A stretch of 45,156 nucleotides of DNA, taken from the NCBI GenBank assembly GCA_964366905.1, contig CAYIVQ010000001.1, forward strand, positions 1 through 45,156. Direction: 5' to 3'. The position numbers and the translations under genes are program-made. This document shows positions 3,486 to 45,156 of this stretch, in pieces; the stretch's first letter is position 1, and every line of letters starts with the position of its first letter. The notes below the pieces were generated by a model. It made no database searches. It worked only from the letters and a program-made list of their open reading frames with translations, and had not been told where the DNA came from. Source of the stretch: an uncultured Candidatus Saccharibacteria bacterium (GTDB lineage: Bacteria; Patescibacteriota; Minisyncoccia; GWC2-36-17; WO2-46-25).

Positions 3486-5774
3486 TTATTCAAAATGAAT
3501 TTTTGCGTTAAATCGCGCAAGATAATTTTTCAGTTTCGGATGGCGGGTTAGTTCCGAGTCTTCTTTAAGCAATTGTATTGCTTCTTCGCGCGCTTCTTTT
3601 ATTAAAATTTTGTTAGTGAGCGACGCCATGGTTAAATCCGGCAGACCGGATTGGCGAGTGCCGAGAAAATCCCCCGGCCCTCTGATTTCCAAATCCTTTT
3701 CCGCGAGCTCAAACCCGTTCTGGCAATTTATTAATGCTTTCAGCCGTCTGCTATTTGCCAATGTCGTATTTTCCGCGAATAAAAGGCAGTATGATTGATA
3801 TTCTCCTCGGCCCACTCTGCCTCTGAATTGATGAAGTTGCGCCAAACCGAAATGCTCCGCCCCTTCAATAAGCATCAAAACGGCATTTGGCACATCAATG
3901 CCGACTTCTATGACTGAAGTTGAAACTAAAATATTGAAGCGATTGGCCTTGAATTCCTTCATGATCCGCTCTTTTTCTTGCGGCTTCATTTTGCCGTGCA
4001 ACATTTCTATTTTCAGATCGGGGAAAATTTCACTGGAAAGTTTTTGATATTCTTCTTTGACAGTTTTGACTTCTTTTTTAAGCAATTCTTGCTGATATGT
4101 TTTTTCGCTTTTGATTTTTGAATCTTCCTGCGCGTCTATTCTCGGACAAATCACAAATGCTTGCCTGCCTTTTCTAATCTCTTCGCGAACAAAATCATAA
4201 GCAGACGTTCGTTCTGAAGGAGTTATTATTTTTGTAACAATATTTTTACGATTTTTCGGCATCTCATTAAGCAAAGAAATATCCAAATCGCCGTATAACG
4301 TGAGAGTGAGAGTGCGCGGTATCGGAGTGGCAGTCATTGATAAAAGATGGGGCATCAGACCGCTTACCGTTTTATATCTTTGCAAAAGTTCAGCCCGCTG
4401 ATTAACACCAAAACGATGCTGTTCATCAAGCACGATAAGTCCTAAGGAAGGGAAAGAGACTTTTTCTGAAATTAGCGCGTGAGTTCCAGTAGTAATTAAA
4501 AGCTTTTTGGACGTTAGCTGATTTAAAAATTCCTGTTTTTTCAGCTTATATTCCGACTTAACTTCAGAATCAAATATTTCAGCGCTGTTGCCGGTAAGCA
4601 GACCGACATTAAAGCCAAATTCGGCAACCATACTGCTTAAAGTATGAAAATGCTGGCGGGCAAGCACTTCGGTTGGCGCCATTATGGCAATTTGGCGGCC
4701 TTTAGAAGCCGCGTTTAACGCGGCAATCGCCGCCACGACCGTTTTACCGGATCCAACATCGCCTTCAAGCAAGCGATTCATCGGGATATTTTTTGACATA
4801 TCCTGTAAAATTTCCCACGCGGCCTTGCGTTGAGAATCAGTCAGCGTGAAAGAAAGAGAAGCGACGAATTTTTTTGTTTTTTCTATGTCAAAAGGTATCG
4901 GTGGCGCGGCAGATTTTTTTATTTTTCGTCTTGCTTTCAGTATAATCAGTTGAATGAGAAGCAATTCTTCAAAAGCCAGCCGTCTTTTCGCTTCTTTCAC
5001 TTCATCAGTATTTTCAGGAAAATGAATTTTTAAAATAGCGGAGCTTATGGGAAGCAGATTATGCTTCTTTATGATTTCTTGCGGGAGAATCTCTTCCATT
5101 TGCGCGGCTTGCCCGTCATACGGCGAGTGCTCCCGTTTTGTCCAAGAGCTTTGCGATTGGCGCACAAAACGCAGTCCAGCGAGGCTTTTGCCGAGTCGTG
5201 GCTCCGCTTTCTCCGTTCGCGGGTTGCCGATCGCGTTTTTCACCAGGAATCTGATCCAACGAGAAGTAATGCCCGCGGTTTCACGATATATCGGCACCAA
5301 TCCTCCAGTATGCGTATGTTCGGAAGTCGAACTTTCAAATATTCTTTCATAAGCGGGATTTTGCAAATATAAAGAGTTGCCGTAAGAAACCGCCTTTCCG
5401 GCCAAATTCACTAAACTGCCGATTTTCAGATTTCGAATCAAAAACGGCTGGTTGAACCACACTGCTTTTATCATGCCGCTTTCATCTGAAACTTCCGCTT
5501 CAGTAACATACATATTTTTTTTCCATGTCCGTTTGTTCGTTATTTTATCTATTTTCGCGCGAATAGTCGCAGTTTCACCAGGAGTCAATTCGGCTATATT
5601 TACAATTTTTGAGAAATCATCATATCGAAATGGAATATGCCGCAAAAGATCATAAACAGTATGAATGCCCAAAACTTTAAGTGGTTTGACAATCTTATAG
5701 TTGACTCCTTTTAACTTTTCTATCGGGTCGGATAAACCGATATTTTTTATATGAGTTTTACCTATCATAAACAA
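3486..5774 (-). CDS. recG: ATP-dependent DNA helicase RecG
   Basis: 762 aa. N-terminal wedge region (HIPFRYDD), Walker A GDVGSGKT, DEQHRFG box, C-terminal helicase motifs (QLHQFRGRVGRG), TRG-like end. Confidence 0.93.
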   Translation of the reverse strand: MFMIGKTHIKNIGLSDPIEKLKGVNYKIVKPLKVLGIHTVYDLLRHIPFRYDDFSKIVNIAELTPGETATIRAKIDKITNKRTWKKNMYVTEAEVSDESGMIKAVWFNQPFLIRNLKIGSLVNLAGKAVSYGNSLYLQNPAYERIFESSTSEHTHTGGLVPIYRETAGITSRWIRFLVKNAIGNPRTEKAEPRLGKSLAGLRFVRQSQSSWTKREHSPYDGQAAQMEEILPQEIIKKHNLLPISSAILKIHFPENTDEVKEAKRRLAFEELLLIQLIILKARRKIKKSAAPPIPFDIEKTKKFVASLSFTLTDSQRKAAWEILQDMSKNIPMNRLLEGDVGSGKTVVAAIAALNAASKGRQIAIMAPTEVLARQHFHTLSSMVAEFGFNVGLLTGNSAEIFDSEVKSEYKLKKQEFLNQLTSKKLLITTGTHALISEKVSFPSLGLIVLDEQHRFGVNQRAELLQRYKTVSGLMPHLLSMTATPIPRTLTLTLYGDLDISLLNEMPKNRKNIVTKIITPSERTSAYDFVREEIRKGRQAFVICPRIDAQEDSKIKSEKTYQQELLKKEVKTVKEEYQKLSSEIFPDLKIEMLHGKMKPQEKERIMKEFKANRFNILVSTSVIEVGIDVPNAVLMLIEGAEHFGLAQLHQFRGRVGRGEYQSYCLLFAENTTLANSRRLKALINCQNGFELAEKDLEIRGPGDFLGTRQSGLPDLTMASLTNKILIKEAREEAIQLLKEDSELTRHPKLKNYLARFNAKIHFE
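5112..5228 (-). repeat. intragenic GC-rich repeat, 114-nt long form, in recG
   Basis: Read on the recG strand as (G)NPRTEKAEPRLGKSLAGLRFVRQSQSSWTKREHSPYDG. The 72-nt internal segment is identical to that at 24330-24401. Confidence 0.85.
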
Positions 5775-18733: not shown

Positions 18734-19300
18734 ATGAAAAAGCAAATAGAGCTTAATGCTAAAAAAGTTGAATATACCCTGAAAGTGAGCAAGCGGGCGC
18801 GAATGATGCGGCTGACTGTTTATTGCGGAGGCGATTTTGTGGTGACGGCTCCGCAAAGCGTAGGAGAAAATGTTATTGAGCAGTTTATCATTAAAAAATC
18901 ACAGTGGGTTATTGATAAGATAAATTATTTAAAACAGTTTCCCGCCGGAACTTTTACAAAAAGTAATCGGGGAGATTTTTTAAAACACAAAGATGTCGCG
19001 TTGAAGCTGGCGGAGAGGCAGATAGAATATTTTAATGATTTTTATAAACTCAAGTTTAATAAGATAAATATAAGAAATCAAAAAACTCGCTGGGGCAGCT
19101 GTTCTAAAAAAGGTAATTTGAATTTTAATTACAAAATCGTACTACTACCGCAACAACTCGCCGACTATATTATTGTCCATGAATTATGCCATCTTGGTGA
19201 ATTTAATCACTCTAAAAGATTTTGGAATCTGGTCGCCAAAATGATCCCAAACTATCAAGAGATGAGAAATGAGTTGAGGAAAAACAGAATTAGTTTATGA
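18734..19300 (+). CDS. M48/YgjP-like (DUF45) metal-dependent hydrolase
   Basis: RWGSCSKKGNLNFNYKIVLLPQQLADYIIVHELCHLGEFNHSKRFW (HExxH). Confidence 0.8.
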   Translation: MKKQIELNAKKVEYTLKVSKRARMMRLTVYCGGDFVVTAPQSVGENVIEQFIIKKSQWVIDKINYLKQFPAGTFTKSNRGDFLKHKDVALKLAERQIEYFNDFYKLKFNKINIRNQKTRWGSCSKKGNLNFNYKIVLLPQQLADYIIVHELCHLGEFNHSKRFWNLVAKMIPNYQEMRNELRKNRISL

Positions 19301-19572
19301 ACTATTTCGTCTATATTCTCAAATGTGCTGATGATACTCTTTATGTCGGCTCTACTAATGATTTGGCAAAGAGGATTATTCAACATAATACGGCAAAGGC
19401 GGGGGCGCATTACACAAAAATCCGGCGGCCGGTGGAGCTGGTATATTCGGAAACTGTGGAAACTCTTTCAAGGGCGCTCAAGCGAGAAGCTGAAATTAAA
19501 CTCTGGCGCAGGGATAAGAAAATAAAACTCATTCAACCCGCGAACACAGAGAGCGGAGCAGTCGCCGTATGA
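19297..19572 (+). CDS. GIY-YIG nuclease-family protein (UPF0213-like)
   Basis: YFVYILKCADDTLYVGSTNDLAKRIIQH...REAEIK. The last 11 codons and the stop come from the intragenic repeat. Confidence 0.85.
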   Translation: MNYFVYILKCADDTLYVGSTNDLAKRIIQHNTAKAGAHYTKIRRPVELVYSETVETLSRALKREAEIKLWRRDKKIKLIQPANTESGAVAV

Positions 19573-19576
19573 CGGC
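19535..19576 (+). repeat. intragenic GC-rich repeat, 42-nt unit, supplying the GIY-YIG C-terminus and TGA
   Basis: AACCCGCGAACACAGAGAGCGGAGCAGTCGCCGTATGACGGC. Read in its third frame (ANTESGAVAV*), with TGA at 19570-19572. Confidence 0.85.
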
Positions 19577-19618
19577 AATCTACGCGGTAAGGGCATATTT
19601 TGTTATTTATTTTATCCT

Positions 19619-19660
19619 TTTCGTCTATCTGTTAAGCTATAGCTTAACAGATAGACGAAA
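19619..19660. repeat. 42-bp perfect palindrome
   Basis: TTTCGTCTATCTGTTAAGCTA|TAGCTTAACAGATAGACGAAA, checked base by base. Centre CTATAG, as in the 2772/3410 palindromes. Confidence 0.9.
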
Positions 19661-19716
19661 CTATAATAAGTTTAAATAGTTTTCGATAGGACTTCCTCTT
19701 TTTCTTAAGATGAGAT

Positions 19717-23493: not shown

Positions 23494-24933
23494 CTATAAA
23501 ATATTTTTGCTTGCCGCGGTGCCGGCAACGAATCCGGTGGTCCAGCAGAGTTGGAGCGAATAGCCGCCGGATGGGCGGTCAATGTTGAGCATATCTCCGA
23601 TGATATAAAGATTGGGGAAAAGGCGCGAACGCATCGTCTTTGGATCAATTTCCTCAAGCGAAACTCCACCGCTAGTAATGACGGCTTTGTCCGCACCGAG
23701 AAGTTTGTCCGCGCGCATCGGCAGGTTTTTCAGGCAAGCGATTAATTTCATTCGCTCCTCGCGCGTGATGCTATTTACTACTGTTTCCGGATTGATTTTG
23801 CACTTCGCGATAATAATGGGAGCGAGAGCGGATGGAATAATGCTGTCCAATGAATTCCTGATTTTTTTATTGCTATGTTTTTTAAATAGATCTTTCAGCG
23901 CAATATCAAGCTGTTCGTTATTTAATGATGGGAGAATATCAAGCGACATAACCACTTCTCCGCTTTTTAAAAGTTCGCCGATTGCCTTGCTCATATGCAA
24001 TACCGCGGGTCCGCTGATACCGAAATGGGTAAAAAGAATTTTTCCTCTATTTGTATTATGAACGATTTCATTTTGAATAGCGTTGATTTTTACATCCGCA
24101 ATGCTGACGCCGGAAAGTTGTTTTGCCCATGAGTCTTTTATGGCAACCGGCACAAGCGAAGGAGTGGGTATAGCGATATTATGCCCGAGCTTTTTTAGCC
24201 ACGCAAAGCCATCTCCCGCAGATCCGGTTTCCGGGTGAGAGCCTCCGCCGGCGGCAACAATGATCGCGTTGGCATGGATTTCTTTACCGTCGCGCAATAT
24301 TACGCCAGTTGCCGTCATACGACGACTGCTCCCGTTTTGTCCAAGAGCTTTGCGATTGGCGCACAAAACGCAGTCCAGCGAGGCTTTTGCCGAGTCGTGG
24401 CTCCGCTCTCTGCGTTCGCGGGTTGCCATCATACGGTGACTGCTCCGCTCTCTGCGTTCGCGGGTTGCCTTTGGCATAGACGCGCGGGAAACAATGATAT
24501 CACTAACAGGAGAATCGGATATTACCGTTACTCCGCCTTCGCGCATATATTTCACTAACACATCCCATACCGATCTCGCGCTGTCGCTGGCGGGGAAAAC
24601 CCGCTGTTCATTTTCTATTTTAGTCGCCATCCCGCGAGTATTGAAAAAGTTGAGAGTATCTTGAACGCTCCATTGCGAAAAAGCAGAAAAAAGAAATTTG
24701 CCGTCGTCTTTAAATTTTTCCAAGAATTTTCGCGTATTAAATTCCGCGTTGGTGAGATTGCATCTGCCTCCGCCGGTGATCAAAAGCTTTTTGCCAAGCG
24801 TATCATTTTTTTCAATCAACGCCACGCGCGCTCCGCATTCAGCCGCCCGCCCGGCCGCCATCATCCCCGCAGACCCTCCGCCGATGACAATGACATCCCA
24901 TATGTTATCCGTTTTTGATTTCATATAATTCAT
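23494..24933 (-). CDS. HI0933/BaiN-like FAD-dependent oxidoreductase
   Basis: WDVIVIGGGSAGMMAA, LITGGGRCNLTN, C-terminal GGYSLQLCWTTG. Interrupted in frame by 156 nt of repeat. Confidence 0.85.
   Translation of the reverse strand: MNYMKSKTDNIWDVIVIGGGSAGMMAAGRAAECGARVALIEKNDTLGKKLLITGGGRCNLTNAEFNTRKFLEKFKDDGKFLFSAFSQWSVQDTLNFFNTRGMATKIENEQRVFPASDSARSVWDVLVKYMREGGVTVISDSPVSDIIVSRASMPKATRERRERSSHRMMATRERRERSHDSAKASLDCVLCANRKALGQNGSSRRMTATGVILRDGKEIHANAIIVAAGGGSHPETGSAGDGFAWLKKLGHNIAIPTPSLVPVAIKDSWAKQLSGVSIADVKINAIQNEIVHNTNRGKILFTHFGISGPAVLHMSKAIGELLKSGEVVMSLDILPSLNNEQLDIALKDLFKKHSNKKIRNSLDSIIPSALAPIIIAKCKINPETVVNSITREERMKLIACLKNLPMRADKLLGADKAVITSGGVSLEEIDPKTMRSRLFPNLYIIGDMLNIDRPSGGYSLQLCWTTGFVAGTAASKNIL
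24311..24469 (-). repeat. intragenic GC-rich repeat, tandem 114-nt + 42-nt units
   Basis: 24311-24424 (long) and 24425-24466 (short), plus GCC. Translated on the gene strand in the alternative frame as ATRERRERSSHRMM-ATRERRERSHDSAKASLDCVLCANRKALGQNGSSRRMT. Confidence 0.9.
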
Positions 24934-25012: not shown

Positions 25013-26041
25013 ATGACAAAAGGATTTTGGGAAAAAGATAAGTCGCTTTTCACGCTTGCGCCAATGGCGGACGTGACGGACGCGGCATTCCGGCAAATTA
25101 TTGCCAAATACAGCAGGCCTTATGGCCCCGACGCAATATGGACGGAATTTGTTTCCTGTGACGGCTTGTGTTCTGACGGCAAAGACGCACTGATGCATAA
25201 TCTCTGGTTCACGGAAGTCGAGCGCCCGATTGTGGCGCAATTTTTCGGATCCAAGCCGGATAATTTTTACCGGTGCGCTTTGCTTGCTCAAGAACTCGGT
25301 TTTGACGGCATTGATATCAATATGGGATGTCCGGATAAAAAAGTTGAAAAACAGAATGCCGGCGCGGCGCTGATGCGCAATCATGAATTGGCTCAAAAAA
25401 TAATCATTGAAACGAAGCGTGGAGCGGGAAATCTGCCTGTGTCTGTTAAAACCCGCATCGGGTACGATTCCGATATTTTAGACGAATGGCTGCCAAGATT
25501 GCTTGAAACGGAACCGGACGCCATCACAATTCACGCGCGCACGCGCAAAGAAATGTCTTTAGTGCCAGCTCGCTGGGAAGCGATAGCGCGAGCGGTAGAA
25601 ATCGCACGCCGATATGATTCTTCGCCGAATCGCGCGCTGATTATAGGAAACGGAGATATCGTGAGCATGATAGACGCGGAAGAAAAAGTGCGGCAATCAG
25701 GCGCGGACGGCGCGATGATAGGGCGGGGGATTTTCGGCAACCCATGGTTTTTTAATAGAGAAAAAGATATAAACACAATAAGCATTGAAGAAAAATTATT
25801 AGTGCTGATTGAACACGCTTTTTTGTTTGAAAAATTATTTGCCGGCAACCCGCGAACAGAGAGAGCGGAGCAGTCGTCGTATGACGGCATAAAAAGTTTT
25901 AGCGTAATGAAAAAGCATTTTAAAGCGTATGTGAGCGGATTTGACGGGGCCAAAGATTTGCGAATTAAACTAATGGCCGCGCGCGACGCCAACGACGTCG
26001 CGCAAATCGTAGAAAAATATCGTGCTTTTTTTGTAAAGTAA
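25013..26041 (+). CDS. tRNA-dihydrouridine synthase
   Basis: LAPMADVTDAAFR, DGIDINMGCP, ITIHARTR, GNGDI, IGRG. Confidence 0.9.
   Translation: MTKGFWEKDKSLFTLAPMADVTDAAFRQIIAKYSRPYGPDAIWTEFVSCDGLCSDGKDALMHNLWFTEVERPIVAQFFGSKPDNFYRCALLAQELGFDGIDINMGCPDKKVEKQNAGAALMRNHELAQKIIIETKRGAGNLPVSVKTRIGYDSDILDEWLPRLLETEPDAITIHARTRKEMSLVPARWEAIARAVEIARRYDSSPNRALIIGNGDIVSMIDAEEKVRQSGADGAMIGRGIFGNPWFFNREKDINTISIEEKLLVLIEHAFLFEKLFAGNPRTERAEQSSYDGIKSFSVMKKHFKAYVSGFDGAKDLRIKLMAARDANDVAQIVEKYRAFFVK
25847..25888 (+). repeat. intragenic GC-rich repeat, 42-nt unit, in dus
   Basis: AACCCGCGAACAGAGAGAGCGGAGCAGTCGTCGTATGACGGC read as NPRTERAEQSSYDG. Confidence 0.85.
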
Positions 26042-28565: not shown

Positions 28566-30416
28566 ATGAAAAAAACCGGTCCGACAATCAGAATATTGGA
28601 ATTGTTCAAAAGCCGAAAGAAAGCGGTTCTGATAATGGCGGTTTTTATCACGGCCTCGACAGGACTTGATTTGTCCGTGCCTCTTATTTCTCAAAAACTG
28701 ATTGACAGGCTTATTGAATTTTTCAAAACAGGCGGAGCGCCGCCATTTGGTTTTCTTTTTATATCTGCAATCGGTATTTTAGCTGCTACCATCTTGAGTC
28801 GCGTCTTCAGTTCGCTTTATAATTACAATCTTTTTAAAACCGTGACTCAAGTGGAAGATGAGGCAAGACATGCGGCTTTTGAAAAATATTTGCGTTTGCA
28901 CGCTCTATTTCATCACAAATCATCAAGCGGCCAAATTATCGGCAGGATTGAGCGGGGCGGCGGGGCAATTTACGCAATCGCGCATGATATTTTCGGCCAC
29001 AATCTCATACCGCCGCTAATAGTGTTTATCAGCACATTGGGAGTGCTTTTATTTAAAAATCCATTTATCGCTTTGGTAGTATTCGTGCCATTTCCTCTTT
29101 ACCTTTTAACCATACGGCGGCTTACCGATAAAATATATAATATTGAGAAAGTGGTTAACGAGCAATTTGAAGATGTATCTAAAGAAGCGTATGACGTGGC
29201 CGGCAATGTGCTGACCGTCAAAAAATTCGCTGAAGAGAACGCGGAAGCTGCTAAGCAAAAAAGATTGATGGATAAAGCGAGGCTGACGCAATACGGAGCT
29301 GAACAGCTTTGGAATGTATTAGAAAATATCCAAACATTATTCGCGACCTTAGGTAGAATAGCGGTTATTATTTTGGGAGGCTTTCTAGTCTTGAAAGGTA
29401 TGAGCACTATCGGCGAATTTGTATTGTTCGTTTCCCTTCAAAATATGGTGTATTCTCCTTTAGTGAAATTATCAATCGTATTTCCTCGCTTGCGACGCAA
29501 CACAGCCCGCGCGGAGCGTTTATTTGATATAATAGATGAACCTATCAGCGTTACCGACAAGCTGGACGCGAAAACGCTGCCTCCGCTGGAAAATTCAATT
29601 ATATTCCACGATGTTTCATTCCGCTATGGCAACCCGCAAACGCAGAGAGCAGAGCAGTCATCGTATGATGGCCAAGCTCATCAATGGGCTGTACAAAATA
29701 TCAATATTGAAATTCCGGCGCGCGCGACAGTGGCGCTGGTGGGAAGAAGCGGTAGCGGCAAAACCACTTTTATCAATTTATTGCTTCGCTCATACGACCC
29801 GACAGAAGGAGATATATTGATTGATGGGCAGAATCTGAAGGATGTTAAACGCGAAAGTTTGCTTAAGCAAGTAGCTGTAGTTCCGCAAGAGGTAGATCTC
29901 TTTTCCCGCTCTATTTTAGGCAATATCGCGTACGGGAAGCCGGAAGTAAGTCGTGAAGAAGTCATTCAGGCGGCAAAGACCGCTCTCGCGCATGACTTTA
30001 TTATGAAAACAGAGAATAGATATGATACTATAGTAGGGGAACGAGGCATGAAGCTTTCCGGAGGCGAACGCCAGCGGATCGGAATCGCGCGGGCTGTATT
30101 GCGCGACCCGAAAATCCTGATTTTAGACGAAGCTACCAGCCATTTAGATACCGAAAGCGAACAACTAATCTCTCAAGCAACAGACGATTTAGTAAAAAAC
30201 AGGACAACTATTATCATCGCGCATCGCCTCTCCACAGTTTTAAACGCTGATATGATTTTAGTGTTCAATGATGGAAAAATTGAAGCAAGCGGAAAACACA
30301 ATGAATTATTGAAAACAAGCGCCACATATCAAAAACTTTATTCTTTGCAGTTCCGCGATAACGACAACCCGCGAACACAGAGAGCGGAGCAGTCGCCGTA
30401 TGACGACAAATCTTAA
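28566..30416 (+). CDS. ABC exporter, fused permease/ATPase (MsbA-like)
   Basis: Six-TM N-terminal half. NBD with GRSGSGKTT, LSGGERQRIGIARA, ILILDEATSHLD. Confidence 0.92.
   Translation: MKKTGPTIRILELFKSRKKAVLIMAVFITASTGLDLSVPLISQKLIDRLIEFFKTGGAPPFGFLFISAIGILAATILSRVFSSLYNYNLFKTVTQVEDEARHAAFEKYLRLHALFHHKSSSGQIIGRIERGGGAIYAIAHDIFGHNLIPPLIVFISTLGVLLFKNPFIALVVFVPFPLYLLTIRRLTDKIYNIEKVVNEQFEDVSKEAYDVAGNVLTVKKFAEENAEAAKQKRLMDKARLTQYGAEQLWNVLENIQTLFATLGRIAVIILGGFLVLKGMSTIGEFVLFVSLQNMVYSPLVKLSIVFPRLRRNTARAERLFDIIDEPISVTDKLDAKTLPPLENSIIFHDVSFRYGNPQTQRAEQSSYDGQAHQWAVQNINIEIPARATVALVGRSGSGKTTFINLLLRSYDPTEGDILIDGQNLKDVKRESLLKQVAVVPQEVDLFSRSILGNIAYGKPEVSREEVIQAAKTALAHDFIMKTENRYDTIVGERGMKLSGGERQRIGIARAVLRDPKILILDEATSHLDTESEQLISQATDDLVKNRTTIIIAHRLSTVLNADMILVFNDGKIEASGKHNELLKTSATYQKLYSLQFRDNDNPRTQRAEQSPYDDKS
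29631..29672 (+). repeat. intragenic GC-rich repeat, 42-nt unit, in the ABC exporter NBD
   Basis: AACCCGCAAACGCAGAGAGCAGAGCAGTCATCGTATGATGGC read as NPQTQRAEQSSYDG, between FRYG and the Walker A strand. Confidence 0.85.
30366..30407 (+). repeat. intragenic GC-rich repeat, 42-nt unit, forming the ABC exporter C-terminal tail
   Basis: AACCCGCGAACACAGAGAGCGGAGCAGTCGCCGTATGACGAC read as NPRTQRAEQSPYDD, 3 codons before the stop. Confidence 0.85.
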
Positions 30417-44101: not shown

Positions 44102-45156
44102 TAAGAGTCGGTTTTGAATGCGAACAATTGGAGGGAAATAGGTTTGGAGTGGGGCATACTCTCGCCCAGCTTTTGGAAGTGTTCGCGCAAATTCCGGAGA
44201 TAGAAAAACAATTCCGGTTTGTTTTACATTTCAAAAAAGAAATCCCGAAAGATAATTTTTTATCGCATCCGGTTTTTGAAAAAAGAATTTTAACAGGAGG
44301 GATAATCCCGCCCAGTTTTAATGTTTTCTATCATATCCTTATTCCGATTGCGTATTGGCGCGATAAACTAGACTTATACTTTTTCCCTTCATACATGCTA
44401 CCGGCGTTTTTTGTCGGCAAATCTATCGTTGTGCTGACCAATGATGTTTATTGGGAAGCGCATCATAGCAATCTTCCATTCAAATACCGCTTAGCTTACA
44501 GATTATTTTGCTGGTGGGCGGCAAAACGAGCCGATAAGATTTTGACTATTTCGGAATTTTCCGCCAGTGAATTGCGAAAGTTTTATAATATTTCCCGCGA
44601 AAAAATCTTTGTGAACTCATGGGGATTGGAAAAAATATTTCAAGAACTACCTAAAGACGAAAAATATCTCTCGGAAATTCAAAAAATTAAAATCCAATTT
44701 GGCATTGAGAATAAATTCTTCCTTTCCATTGGTCAAGCGTTCCCGCGCAGACATATTAAAGAAGCAATGCTCGCGTTCGCTTCAATCGCGAATCAATATT
44801 CGGACACGCAATATCTTGTCACCGCTACTGACAAATATGAACCGCCTATATTGGAGAATTTAGTCAAAGAAATCAACCAAAAAGCCGGCAGACGAGCGAT
44901 TATTTACGTCAAATATCTTGATCGAAAAATATTGCCGCATTTGATGAACGAAACGCTCGCGCTGATTTACGTTTCCGATAAAGAAGCGCTCGGCCTGCCG
45001 CCGCTTGAAGCGCTCGCTTGCGGCCGTCCGGCGATCGTGAAAGACAACGAGATCTCGCGCGAACTTTTCGGCGAGCAAGGATATTTCGTTGCAGATACAA
45101 ACAACCCGCGAACGCAGAGAGCGGAGCAGTCACCGTATGATGGCAACCCGCGAACG
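44098..45156 (+). CDS. GT4 (GT-B fold) glycosyltransferase, 3' end beyond the window
   Basis: Not in the ORF track because no stop is reached. ATG at 44098 overlaps the upstream TGA. My own translation gives MIRVGFECEQLEGNRFGVGH...SDKEALGLPPLEALACGRPAIV (E-x7-E type motif), then runs into the 42-nt repeats. Confidence 0.78.
   Translation, partial: MIRVGFECEQLEGNRFGVGHTLAQLLEVFAQIPEIEKQFRFVLHFKKEIPKDNFLSHPVFEKRILTGGIIPPSFNVFYHILIPIAYWRDKLDLYFFPSYMLPAFFVGKSIVVLTNDVYWEAHHSNLPFKYRLAYRLFCWWAAKRADKILTISEFSASELRKFYNISREKIFVNSWGLEKIFQELPKDEKYLSEIQKIKIQFGIENKFFLSIGQAFPRRHIKEAMLAFASIANQYSDTQYLVTATDKYEPPILENLVKEINQKAGRRAIIYVKYLDRKILPHLMNETLALIYVSDKEALGLPPLEALACGRPAIVKDNEISRELFGEQGYFVADTNNPRTQRAEQSPYDGNPRT
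45103..45156 (+). repeat. intragenic GC-rich repeat, tandem units (second truncated by the window edge)
   Basis: 45103-45144 is AACCCGCGAACGCAGAGAGCGGAGCAGTCACCGTATGATGGC. It restarts at 45145. Read as NPRTQRAEQSPYDG-NPRT. Confidence 0.85.

What the first reader, a model, noticed from the sequence alone, without database searches (positions are those of the whole stretch)
19535..19576. A repeat unit read in its third frame supplies the last 11 codons and the stop codon of a GIY-YIG gene
The GIY-YIG domain ends around ...RRDKKIKLIQ. From 19535 the ORF runs through the 42-nt unit in the one sense frame that has a stop, giving PANTESGAVAV then TGA at 19570-19572. The insertion has therefore replaced or redefined the native C-terminus. 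All three sense frames of the element are thus in use somewhere in this window. This is good evidence that the element is a DNA/RNA-level entity that genes tolerate rather than a protein motif.
Basis: seen in the sequence. Interest (0 to 1): 0.6.

Follow-up and report, generated by a model that had tools for sequence, protein, structure and literature searches.

The report
Repeat-made tail on GIY-YIG nuclease
A 42-base mobile DNA repeat of an ultra-small groundwater bacterium has landed four codons before the end of a small nuclease gene and now supplies its last 11 amino acids and stop codon; the event itself is of a known kind, but the repeat resembles the hairpin motifs that such nucleases cut and keeps turning up at this gene's end.

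Summary
Window 19534-19575 is one copy of a 42-nt GC-rich repeat, with about 47 copies in this 0.86-Mb Patescibacteria genome. It lies in the only one of its six frames that has a stop. It gives the GIY-YIG ORF (19297-19572) the tail PANTESGAVAV and the TGA at 19570-19572.

Removing exactly 42 nt restores an 83-residue protein ending QSTR*. That matches repeat-free orthologues in length and pattern. The native end (CAA TCT ACG CGG TAA, 19576-19590) survives untranslated.

The element acts at the nucleic-acid level:
- It is used in five open frames on both strands.
- One hairpin pair covaries independently of frame.
- It inserts next to ATGACGG|CAA, its own unit-to-unit junction.
- It is far better conserved than the adjacent coding DNA.

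New here: units sit within about 15 nt of this gene's native stop at three independent positions in different lineages. The unit also resembles the NTS/SRM hairpins cut by Ssn-type GIY-YIG nucleases. A canonical NTS-ssn-NTS element in the same genome likewise takes its last codons and TGA from its motif.

A functional nuclease-motif link is plausible (about 35%) but unproven. Read-level checks were unavailable.

The parts
19297..19572 (+). Present GIY-YIG (UPF0213-like) ORF, 91 aa. Its start overlaps the stop of the upstream YgjP-like gene (ATGA).
19297..19533 (+). Native part of the gene, codons 1-79. The folded GIY-YIG domain ends with a helix at residues 72-79.
19534..19575 (+). 42-nt repeat unit CAACCCGCGAACACAGAGAGCGGAGCAGTCGCCGTATGACGG, read in sense frame 0. 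It encodes Q-PANTESGAVAV-stop. It is the only copy in the genome identical to the family consensus.
19538..19556 (+). Hairpin 1 of the unit: CCGC, an 11-nt loop, then GCGG. The CCCGCGAA...GCGG sequence resembles the NTS core.
19561..19576 (+). Hairpin 2 of the unit (GTCGCC GTAT GACGGC), the one with the covarying pair. Its 3' arm holds ATGACG, the reverse complement of a CGTCAT tag.
19570..19572 (+). TGA stop codon now used by the gene. It lies inside the unit's ATGACG.
19576..19590 (+). Untranslated relic of the native 3' end: CAA TCT ACG CGG TAA (QSTR*). It is still in frame behind the TGA.
24426..24467 (-). Another unit, in sense frame 1 of the HI0933-like flavoprotein gene. A 114-nt long form lies next to it at 24312-24425.
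25846..25887 (+). Another unit, in sense frame 2 of the Dus gene. It is an exact 14-residue insertion (NPRTERAEQSSYDG) relative to four orthologues.
29630..29671 (+). Another unit, in sense frame 2 of the ABC transporter gene.
30365..30406 (+). Another unit, in sense frame 2, 11 nt before the stop of the same ABC transporter gene.
45102..45143 (+). Another unit, in sense frame 2 of a glycosyltransferase gene. A tandem copy runs off the window end.
5113..5226 (-). 114-nt long form of the unit inside recG.

Best explanation
SHOWN. A 42-nt, GC-rich, hairpin-bearing dispersed element inserted between codons 79 and 80 of an 83-codon stand-alone GIY-YIG (UPF0213-like) nuclease gene. It lies in the only one of its six reading frames that has a stop. 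Translation therefore runs Q-PANTESGAVAV and ends at the TGA inside the element's ATGACG. The native end (QSTR, TAA) remains untranslated directly behind it. The new tail lies beyond the last helix of the domain and is predicted to be disordered, so the enzyme is most likely unharmed.

The element is a nucleic-acid-level entity:
- Nearly all copies lie inside housekeeping genes as exact 14-codon insertions, in five stop-free frames on both strands.
- A stem pair covaries independently of frame.
- Units are much better conserved than the neighbouring coding DNA.
- Insertion sites look like the element's own unit-to-unit junction (ATGACGG|CAA). This explains the tandem arrays. It also explains the rarity of frame 0, because in that frame the preferred target itself contains TGA.

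INFERRED. The placement at this gene is not random. Units occupy three independent positions within about 15 nt of the native stop of this orthologue group (-15 here, -6 in L038, +9 in G001). The cause is unresolved. My leading idea (about 35%) is an Ssn/SRM-type pairing. In this idea the unit is a derived NTS-like motif: a CGTCAT tag plus a CCCGCGAA...GCGG hairpin. A small GIY-YIG single-strand nuclease, this one or a paralogue, would bind it and cut at the unit boundary, driving its spread. The alternative is a sequence-determined hotspot plus tolerance of changes at a C-terminus.

The confidence given applies to the shown part.
For: Gene and unit.

Native end: orthologues stop aligning at residue 80-81 and end ...IESRA*...IESHA*...IKSGA*...IKSHA* at 83 aa. 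Excision gives ...IQSTR* at 83 aa.

Filled and empty pairs differ by exactly 42 nt: L037 vs L039, and L038 vs L044.

Tail: pLDDT is below 50 for residues 83-91 after the helix at 72-79. PDB UPF0213 homology ends at residue 78-80.

Frames: S2 24, S1 9, S0 1, antisense 10 and no ORF 2 in this genome. Other genomes give S2 27, S1 3, S0 0 and antisense 8.

Dus carries an exact 14-aa insertion.

Covariation: pair 31-40 is G-C in 24 copies and A-U in 15. Fisher odds ratio is 216 with p = 2.5e-9. Column 32, which lies between them, is unlinked. Both pair types occur in all frame classes.

Unit versus coding-sequence divergence is 1-2/42 against 38-56/237, with 24-36/79 at third positions (p = 1e-4 to 1e-7).

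Target logo: ATGACGG|CAA, with G at position -1 in 85% of 68 sites.

Hotspot: site A, site B and site C in G001.

Ssn parallel:
- A canonical NTS-ssn-NTS element lies on contig C50. Its 3' NTS encodes TGFPLSRE plus the TGA.
- 38 of its 120 closest homologues keep that tail.
- The window protein is 39% identical to it.
- An NTS-like hairpin lies in the 3' spacer of the G007, G008 and G010 orthologues and nowhere else in those genomes.
- The window copy is the only one identical to the family consensus.
- Literature: PMC11893778.
Against: No read-level check was possible.

Against the inferred link:
- The unit fails the published SRM search pattern on both strands.
- No canonical NTS or SRM lies in the flanks of 30 orthologue loci.
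- The window protein carries the UPF0213-type GA[KH]YT..RRP signature. It scores as well against UPF0213 structures as against the Ssn-type paralogue.
- This orthologue group is present in many genomes without the unit.
- In eight low-copy genomes no unit shares a contig with the best GIY-YIG homologue.
- The TCCCGC-N6-GCGGGATTG hairpin could simply be a terminator, and its search pattern was designed after the fact.
- Site A is an atypical target: it is the only one of 68 with T at position -1.

Whether site A arose once or several times is undecided. The tree needs 3 changes, but the AU test gives p = 0.37.
Confidence: 0.85

Rival explanations
1. Chance passenger. The unit landed at random, and it persists here only because the C-terminus of a small protein tolerates change. 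It has no relation to the nuclease.
For: The tail lies outside the fold and is predicted to be disordered. C-termini of this family are variable. Coxiella QMITEs likewise overlap only the 3' ends of functional genes, which the authors attribute to tolerance (PMC5896051). There is no unit-to-GIY-YIG proximity in eight other genomes. The orthologue is common in unit-free genomes.
Against: There are three independent positions within about 15 nt of the same orthologue's stop. By my own estimate each has a chance probability of roughly 1-2e-3 (copy number x 30 nt / genome size). Tolerance explains survival, but not arrival at this one gene out of roughly 900.
Confidence: 0.3
2. One ancient insertion that has been retained because the new tail, or the hairpin at the mRNA 3' end, became useful to the gene.
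For: The tail is present at the same junction in orthologues down to 77% identity. The AU test does not reject a single clade. The atypical target makes repeated hits at the same site less likely.
Against: The unit differs by only 2-5% where third codon positions differ by 30-46%. The adjacent relic drifted 5/15 in L037. Peptide-level selection on a disordered tail would not hold all 42 nt constant. The free tree places carriers in three places, each next to empty-site sisters.
Confidence: 0.12
3. The 14-residue stretch is a protein-level repeat motif or a native C-terminal extension, not a DNA element.
For: The 42-nt period is a multiple of three, and most copies share one frame (S2).
Against: The same DNA is read in five frames and on both strands, giving unrelated peptides. 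Covariation follows base pairing, not codons. Orthologues lack it, and the native end lies behind it.
Confidence: 0.02
4. Assembly artefact: a repeat-induced mis-join in a metagenome-assembled genome created the junction.
For: Contigs of related assemblies tend to break inside unit arrays (L035, L040). Reads could not be inspected.
Against: The identical junction, unit and relic occur in independent assemblies from different samples. The flanks are collinear with orthologous loci on both sides.
Confidence: 0.02

Closest known systems
Ssn nucleases and their Ssn-related motifs (NTS/dRS3 of Neisseria; Chenal et al. 2025, PMC11893778)
   Same: The host is a small single-domain GIY-YIG gene with a repeated 20-50-nt hairpin motif at its flank. 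The unit's antisense strand carries a CGTCAT tag, and its sense strand carries CCCGCGAA...GCGG, as in the NTS. A canonical NTS-ssn-NTS element in this same genome also draws its last codons and TGA from the motif.
   Different: The unit fails the published SRM pattern. It has a 12-nt spacer and a 10-11-nt loop, and the tag lies inside a second hairpin. The host protein looks UPF0213-like rather than clearly cd10448. NTS copies are rarely intragenic (2% per the paper), whereas about 95% of these units lie inside genes. No biochemistry exists.
Rickettsia palindromic elements and intragenic CGTC/GTAG-tagged REPs (Ogata et al. as summarised in PMC10969869; Di Nocera et al. 2013, PMC3733652)
   Same: These are selfish repeats inserted in frame in unrelated housekeeping genes and read through as extra peptide. 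Slightly more than 10% of the intragenic REPs in that study lie at the end of a coding region.
   Different: The unit is 42 nt, against about 100-150 bp for RPE-1-type elements. It does not fit the CGTC-REP definition (8-9-bp stem with A/T first pairs, an unpaired CGTC tag, a CCA tail). The host phylum is different (Patescibacteria). Its target motif equals its own junction.
Coxiella burnetii QMITE1/QMITE2 overlaps with gene 3' ends (Wachter et al. 2018, PMC5896051)
   Same: A small repeat supplies the C-terminal residues and/or the stop codon of functional genes (ubiB, pntAA, mutT, enhC) without much change in protein size.
   Different: QMITEs are 190-300 bp with terminal inverted repeats and direct repeats, and they are mostly intergenic. 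Here the element is 42 nt, has no terminal inverted repeats, and is overwhelmingly intragenic.
REP/BIME elements with RAYT, and IS200/IS605 single-strand 'peel and paste' transposition
   Same: Hairpin-dependent small elements, no terminal inverted repeats, no classical target duplication, and insertion next to a short specific motif.
   Different: Y1-transposase genes do not track the element: they are present in 25 of 41 relatives, against the element in 2. No unit lies on the Y1-bearing contigs of this genome.

Membership tests
Ssn-related motif (SRM/NTS) | Matches the degenerate search sequence HGTCWYN(0-2)YYVSBRHN(0-5)WNVSBRGN(0-2)RNCYNB | tested here: not met
   A regex run on tandem unit sequence found no match on either strand. 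The genome has 3 matches against 1.5 expected, and one of them is the canonical NTS on C50.
Ssn-related motif (SRM/NTS) | GC-rich hairpin preceded by a conserved, oriented HGTCWY tag | tested here: inconclusive
   CGTCAT is present on the antisense strand and CCCGCGAA..GCGG is present. However, the tag lies inside hairpin 2 and is 12 nt from hairpin 1.
Ssn-related motif (SRM/NTS) | Found in the flanks of a small single-domain GIY-YIG gene | tested here: met
   Units lie within about 15 nt of the native stop of this orthologue group at three independent positions.
Ssn-related motif (SRM/NTS) | Bound as single-stranded DNA and cut just upstream by the cognate nuclease | not testable with these tools
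   Needs purified protein and oligonucleotides.
Ssn nuclease family (CDD cd10448) | Single-domain GIY-YIG protein shorter than 150 aa | tested here: met
   The protein is 83 aa natively and 91 aa now. Pfam GIY-YIG covers residues 2-76 and is the only domain.
Ssn nuclease family (CDD cd10448) | Falls in the cd10448 clade rather than UPF0213 (cd10456) | tested here: inconclusive
   No CDD is available here. The window protein scores 49.7 bits (39% identity) against the NTS-flanked C50 paralogue and about 46 bits against UPF0213 structures 1ywl and 1zg2. The C50 protein scores only 19 bits against those structures.
Ssn nuclease family (CDD cd10448) | Canonical SRM within the gene's flanks | tested here: not met
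   There were no SRM or NTS (up to 6 mismatches) hits in 30 orthologue loci. Only an NTS-like hairpin, TCCCGC-N6-GCGGGATTG, is present in G007, G008 and G010.
Rickettsia palindromic elements (RPE) | Inserted in frame inside unrelated protein-coding genes and compatible with the host protein | tested here: met
   The frame census and an exact 14-residue insertion in Dus relative to four orthologues.
Rickettsia palindromic elements (RPE) | About 100-150-bp palindromic element encoding a conserved peptide in one frame | tested here: not met
   The unit is 42 nt, has two short hairpins with z about -2, and is read in five frames.
CGTC-tagged REP (Di Nocera et al. 2013) | Stem of 8-9 bp with A/T in the first two pairs, loop of 4-5, unpaired terminal CGTC, CCA tail, mostly head-to-head dimers | tested here: not met
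   The stem is 6 bp, CGTC lies inside the stem, there is no CCA tail, and arrays are head-to-tail (definition read).
MITE | Terminal inverted repeats and a target-site duplication | tested here: not met
   The unit ends (CAACCCGC... and ...TATGACGG) are not complementary. Filled and empty alleles differ by exactly 42 nt. The apparent flanking repeat is the element's own junction motif.
REP/RAYT or IS200/IS605 derivative | Co-occurrence with, or flanking of, a Y1 (HUH) transposase gene | tested here: not met
   PF01797 is present in 25 of 41 relatives regardless of the element. No unit lies on contigs C8 or C12, which carry the Y1 genes.

The most novel reading that the evidence does not exclude
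The 42-nt unit is a diverged Ssn-related motif, and a small GIY-YIG single-strand nuclease (this gene or a paralogue) recognises its hairpin and cuts at the unit boundary. On that reading, this would be the first Ssn-type nuclease-motif pair whose motif multiplies as an in-frame, translated insertion inside essential genes. The copy at the nuclease gene's own end, the only one identical to the family consensus, would be the resident or master copy. This would mechanistically connect Ssn nucleases with RPE-like 'selfish DNA inside genes'.
Probability: 0.3. Interest if true: 0.8.

Novelty: new variant of a known kind. Interest (0 to 1): 0.55.

Why it matters
On its own, a repeat that rewrites a gene's last codons is a known kind of event (Coxiella QMITEs, intragenic REPs).

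It matters here for two reasons. First, this copy is a natural control for the whole family. It is the only copy in the stop-containing frame, and it sits where truncation costs only three residues. It also has an intact native end behind it and near-isogenic filled and empty alleles, so it fixes the element's size at exactly 42 nt and its junction.

Second, the host is a small GIY-YIG nuclease. Since 2025 this kind of enzyme has been known to recognise repeated hairpin motifs in single-stranded DNA. The recurrence of units at this gene's 3' end, and the parallel with the canonical NTS-ssn-NTS element in the same genome, give a concrete and cheap test: does this protein cut the unit? A positive result could explain how such elements spread inside genes of ultra-small bacteria.

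Tried and rejected
- A metagenome scan for the upstream junction of the gene, to find empty alleles of the same strain, gave 0 hits.
- Y1/RAYT transposase as mobiliser: no correlation with the element.
- Viral contigs as a vehicle: 0 hits.
- Rfam: nothing at the unit, only sub-threshold chance hits on the downstream palindrome.
- Single versus multiple origin of the site-A insertion: the tree needs 3 changes, but the AU test (p = 0.37) cannot reject one clade on about 80 columns.
- Proximity of units to GIY-YIG genes generally: 3 of 5 paralogues in G000 and 2 of 7 in G001 lie within 2.5 kb of a unit. I estimated this by hand from the coordinates. It is not above expectation, and I did not formalise it.
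- Eight low-copy genomes show no adjacency.
- Extending the comparison of unit-rich genomes with adjacency to the genomes behind L035, L037 and L038: these are not held.
- A larger autonomous element around the unit in L049, L055, L056 and L064: only a 70-116-nt conserved non-coding block, with no ORF and no Rfam or tRNA/tmRNA match.
- TGA reassignment: table 11 gives normal long ORFs, 124 of 521 ending in TGA, and orthologue lengths agree.
- Frame-0 depletion as pure evidence of selection: rejected as the sole explanation, because the preferred target ATGACGG contains an in-frame TGA in that frame.

Full report
**Observation**

The + strand ORF 19297..19572 encodes 91 residues ending ...WRRDKKIKLIQPANTESGAVAV, with TGA at 19570-19572. 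Pfam GIY-YIG covers residues 2-76. The nearest solved structures are the UPF0213 proteins 1ywl and 1zg2, and homology to them ends at residue 78-80.

The last 39 coding bases belong to a 42-nt unit, CAACCCGCGAACACAGAGAGCGGAGCAGTCGCCGTATGACGG, which I place at 19534-19575. The register is ambiguous by the flanking CAA. The unit is a real dispersed repeat:
- The window has five matches with up to 3 mismatches, against none in shuffles.
- The 864-kb, 79-contig, 41% GC genome holds 45 copies with up to 8 substitutions, and 47 full-length nhmmer hits plus several split 114-nt forms.

**Native end**

In 41 related genomes the element occurs only in this genome (45 pattern hits) and in one same-family genome, G001 (27 hits). 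Orthologues of the GIY-YIG gene align to residues 1-80 or 1-81 and then stop. Their ORFs end ...KKLAFIESRA*...KKMALIESHA*...KKIALIKSGA* and ...KKIELIKSHA*, all at 83 residues.

Deleting exactly 42 nt from the window gives ...KKIKLIQSTR*, also 83 residues. So the bases CAA TCT ACG CGG TAA at 19576-19590 are the native last four codons and stop, now untranslated. An AlphaFold model built on 60 orthologues puts the last helix at residues 72-79. It gives residues 83-91 a pLDDT below 50. The new tail therefore hangs off the fold.

**Nature of the element**

I classified each of the 46 exact-length copies by the longest ORF that contains it:

| Class | This genome | 38 copies from other genomes |
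|---|---|---|
| Sense frame 2 | 24 | 27 |
| Sense frame 1 | 9 | 3 |
| Sense frame 0 | 1 (this copy only) | 0 |
| Antisense (three frames) | 10 | 8 |
| No ORF | 2 | 0 |

- Five of the six frames lack stops.
- In the Dus gene, the unit at 25846-25887 is an exact 14-residue insertion (NPRTERAEQSSYDG) relative to four orthologues.
- Folding gives two short hairpins with z about -2.
- In hairpin 2, pair 31-40 is G-C in 24 distinct copies and A-U in 15, with 3 exceptions. There are also single compensatory double changes at pairs 30-41 and 6-22.
- The 31-40 association is very strong (odds ratio 216, p = 2.5e-9). The variable column 32 lies between them and is linked to neither. Both pair types occur in every frame class.

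**Target**

Across 68 array-first flanks, the upstream consensus is ATGACGG (G at -1 in 85%, G at -2 in 72%). The downstream consensus is CAA (77, 71 and 67%). This is the unit's own 3' end and 5' start.

- Insertion at a junction-like site regenerates the site, which accounts for head-to-tail arrays.
- In sense frame 2 the target reads GAC GGC AAx (Asp-Gly-Lys/Asn).
- In sense frame 0 it contains an in-frame TGA. A good target therefore cannot exist inside an ORF in that frame. The near absence of frame 0 (1 of 64 sense copies; binomial p = 2e-10) reflects target logic as well as selection against truncation.
- The GIY-YIG site (CTCATT|CAA) is the only one of the 68 with T at -1.

**History of this insertion**

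Eight database proteins, 77-100% identical, carry the same tail at the same junction (QPAN[TA]ESGAV[AV]V). Two more carry the unit at a second junction...NFAQSET|QPANTESEAVVA. Their close relatives end ...NFAQNETR*. The DNA confirms this:
- L040 has the same unit and the same relic.
- L037 has the unit, but its relic has drifted (5 of 15 positions) and lost its stop.
- L035 and L036 have tandem units.
- L038 has the unit followed by CAA TAA.

L038 differs from its empty relative L044 by one 42-nt gap across a 598-column alignment at about 93% identity. L037 differs from the empty L039 likewise by 42 gap positions. L041 is a sister of the L037 lineage. It lacks both the unit and the 15-nt native end, and it reads into downstream DNA.

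On a tree of 70 orthologues, site-A carriers fall in three places next to empty sisters. However, an AU test does not reject a single clade (p = 0.37).

Between carriers the unit differs at 1-2 of 42 positions. The adjacent coding sequence differs at 38-56 of 237, and third positions at 24-36 of 79 (p = 1e-4 to 1e-7). So the unit does not evolve like inherited neutral DNA. Re-insertion, homogenisation from other copies, or constraint on the DNA itself is required.

**Link to GIY-YIG/Ssn biology**

That paper describes Ssn proteins as small single-domain GIY-YIG enzymes that bind a repeated hairpin motif (NTS/SRM) in single-stranded DNA and cut just upstream of it. It reports that 71% of ssn homologues have the motif in their flanks.

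I tested the idea as follows.
- The unit does not match the published SRM pattern.
- Contig C50 of this same genome holds a canonical NTS-ssn-NTS element, with NTS copies at 3998-4025(+) and 4355-4382(-).
- The 3' NTS of that gene encodes its last residues, TGFPLSRE, and its TGA. That TGA is the reverse complement of the TGTCAT tag.
- The window gene ends GTA TGA CGG, where ATGACG is the reverse complement of CGTCAT. This is the same tag, orientation and frame.
- Of the 120 closest homologues of the C50 protein, 38 keep the motif-encoded tail TGFPL[SAVPT]RE*. A motif that supplies the end of a small GIY-YIG gene is therefore a common and stable arrangement.
- The window protein is 39% identical to the C50 protein.

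**Recurrence at this gene**

In G001 a unit lies in the same GIY-YIG-to-ABC-F spacer. It is separated from the stop by a 301-bp palindrome bounded by terminal inverted repeats. That palindrome starts 4 nt after the stop and ends 5 nt before the unit. Without it, the unit would begin 9 nt after the stop.

Units thus occupy three independent positions (-15, -6 and +9 nt) around the native stop of one orthologue group. By my own estimate each has a chance probability of order 1e-3.

Two further observations fit a link:
- The window copy is the only one of 46 identical to the family consensus, and it is the most central copy.
- Repeat-free orthologues in G007, G008 and G010 carry TCCCGC-N6-GCGGGATTG 60-80 nt after the stop. 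That pattern occurs only five times in six genomes, always beside a GIY-YIG gene. I designed the pattern after seeing the sequences, however, and the hairpin could be a terminator.

Several observations count against a link:
- The protein has UPF0213-type features and scores equally well against UPF0213 structures.
- No canonical SRM flanks 30 orthologue loci.
- The orthologue is common in unit-free genomes.
- In eight genomes with 1-6 units, no unit shares a contig with the best GIY-YIG homologue.

**What is known and what is new**

- Repeats that overlap gene 3' ends and supply residues or stops are documented for Coxiella QMITEs (PMC5896051).
- Intragenic REPs, including Rickettsia RPE-4 and RPE-6 classed as CGTC REPs, are documented, with slightly more than 10% of them at coding-region ends (PMC3733652).
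- RPEs are the classic in-frame selfish DNA (PMC10969869).
- The unit fails the CGTC-REP definition, the SRM pattern, the MITE criteria and a Y1-transposase association.
- I found no paper describing this element in Patescibacteria. No Rfam family matches it, and it is absent from viral contigs.
- In species-representative genomes it occurs in Azambacteria, Giovannonibacteria, Zambryskibacteria, Liptonbacteria and unnamed Patescibacteria MAGs.

**Verdict**

The event is an ordinary kind of event, caused by an apparently undescribed element. Its placement at a GIY-YIG nuclease gene is probably not accidental, and that can be tested directly.

Noticed in passing
window 19619-19660: A 42-bp perfect palindrome (TTTCGTCTATCTGTTAAGCTA|TAGCTTAACAGATAGACGAAA) lies between the GIY-YIG relic and the ABC-F gene. 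Three more near-identical palindromes exist in the genome (C8:18975, C24:7533, C42:6801). It is probably an operator or a small repeat family. No terminator-like or sigma-70-like site was found there.
   Followed up: partly
G000 contig C50:3998-4382 (outside the window): A canonical NTS-ssn-NTS element. A 99-aa GIY-YIG gene is flanked by inverted near-perfect NTS copies, and the 3' copy encodes the last residues (TGFPLSRE) and the TGA stop. 38 of its 120 closest homologues share that tail.
   Followed up: partly
L049:4127, L055:2986, L056:1338, L064:6175: In four distant Patescibacteria lineages the unit (41 of 42 positions invariant) sits at the same place inside a conserved non-coding block of about 70-116 nt. 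The block has no common ORF and no Rfam, tRNA or tmRNA match. It is either an unknown small RNA gene that was invaded, or the unit's native home.
   Followed up: partly
L005:1175-1475 (G001): A 301-bp palindromic element with 26-nt terminal inverted repeats is inserted between the GIY-YIG stop and a 42-nt unit, 4 and 5 nt from each.
   Followed up: partly
window 19569-19679: The unit's ATGA gives an ATG that overlaps the TGA stop. It opens a 36-codon hydrophobic ORF running through the relic and half of the palindrome. It is probably spurious.
   Followed up: no
window 19570-19590: Because the insert is a multiple of three, the native end stays in frame behind the TGA. Read-through of that TGA would give ...GAVAV-X-RQSTR*, restoring the native last residues.
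   Followed up: no
L041:606-866: A sister lineage of a site-A carrier lacks both the unit and the 15-nt native end. Its ORF runs into downstream DNA (...LISFFFLKR*). This may be an imprecise deletion of the unit plus the relic.
   Followed up: partly
L040:9996-10180 vs window 24312-24469: A strain about 2% divergent seems to carry at least one more tandem unit next to the 114-nt form in the flavoprotein gene. The contig is low-coverage, and its alignment to the window stops inside the unit array, so this is uncertain.
   Followed up: no
window 19297-19300: The GIY-YIG start overlaps the stop of the upstream YgjP-like (DUF45/M48) gene as ATGA, suggesting translational coupling. The same neighbour occurs in L041.
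   Followed up: no
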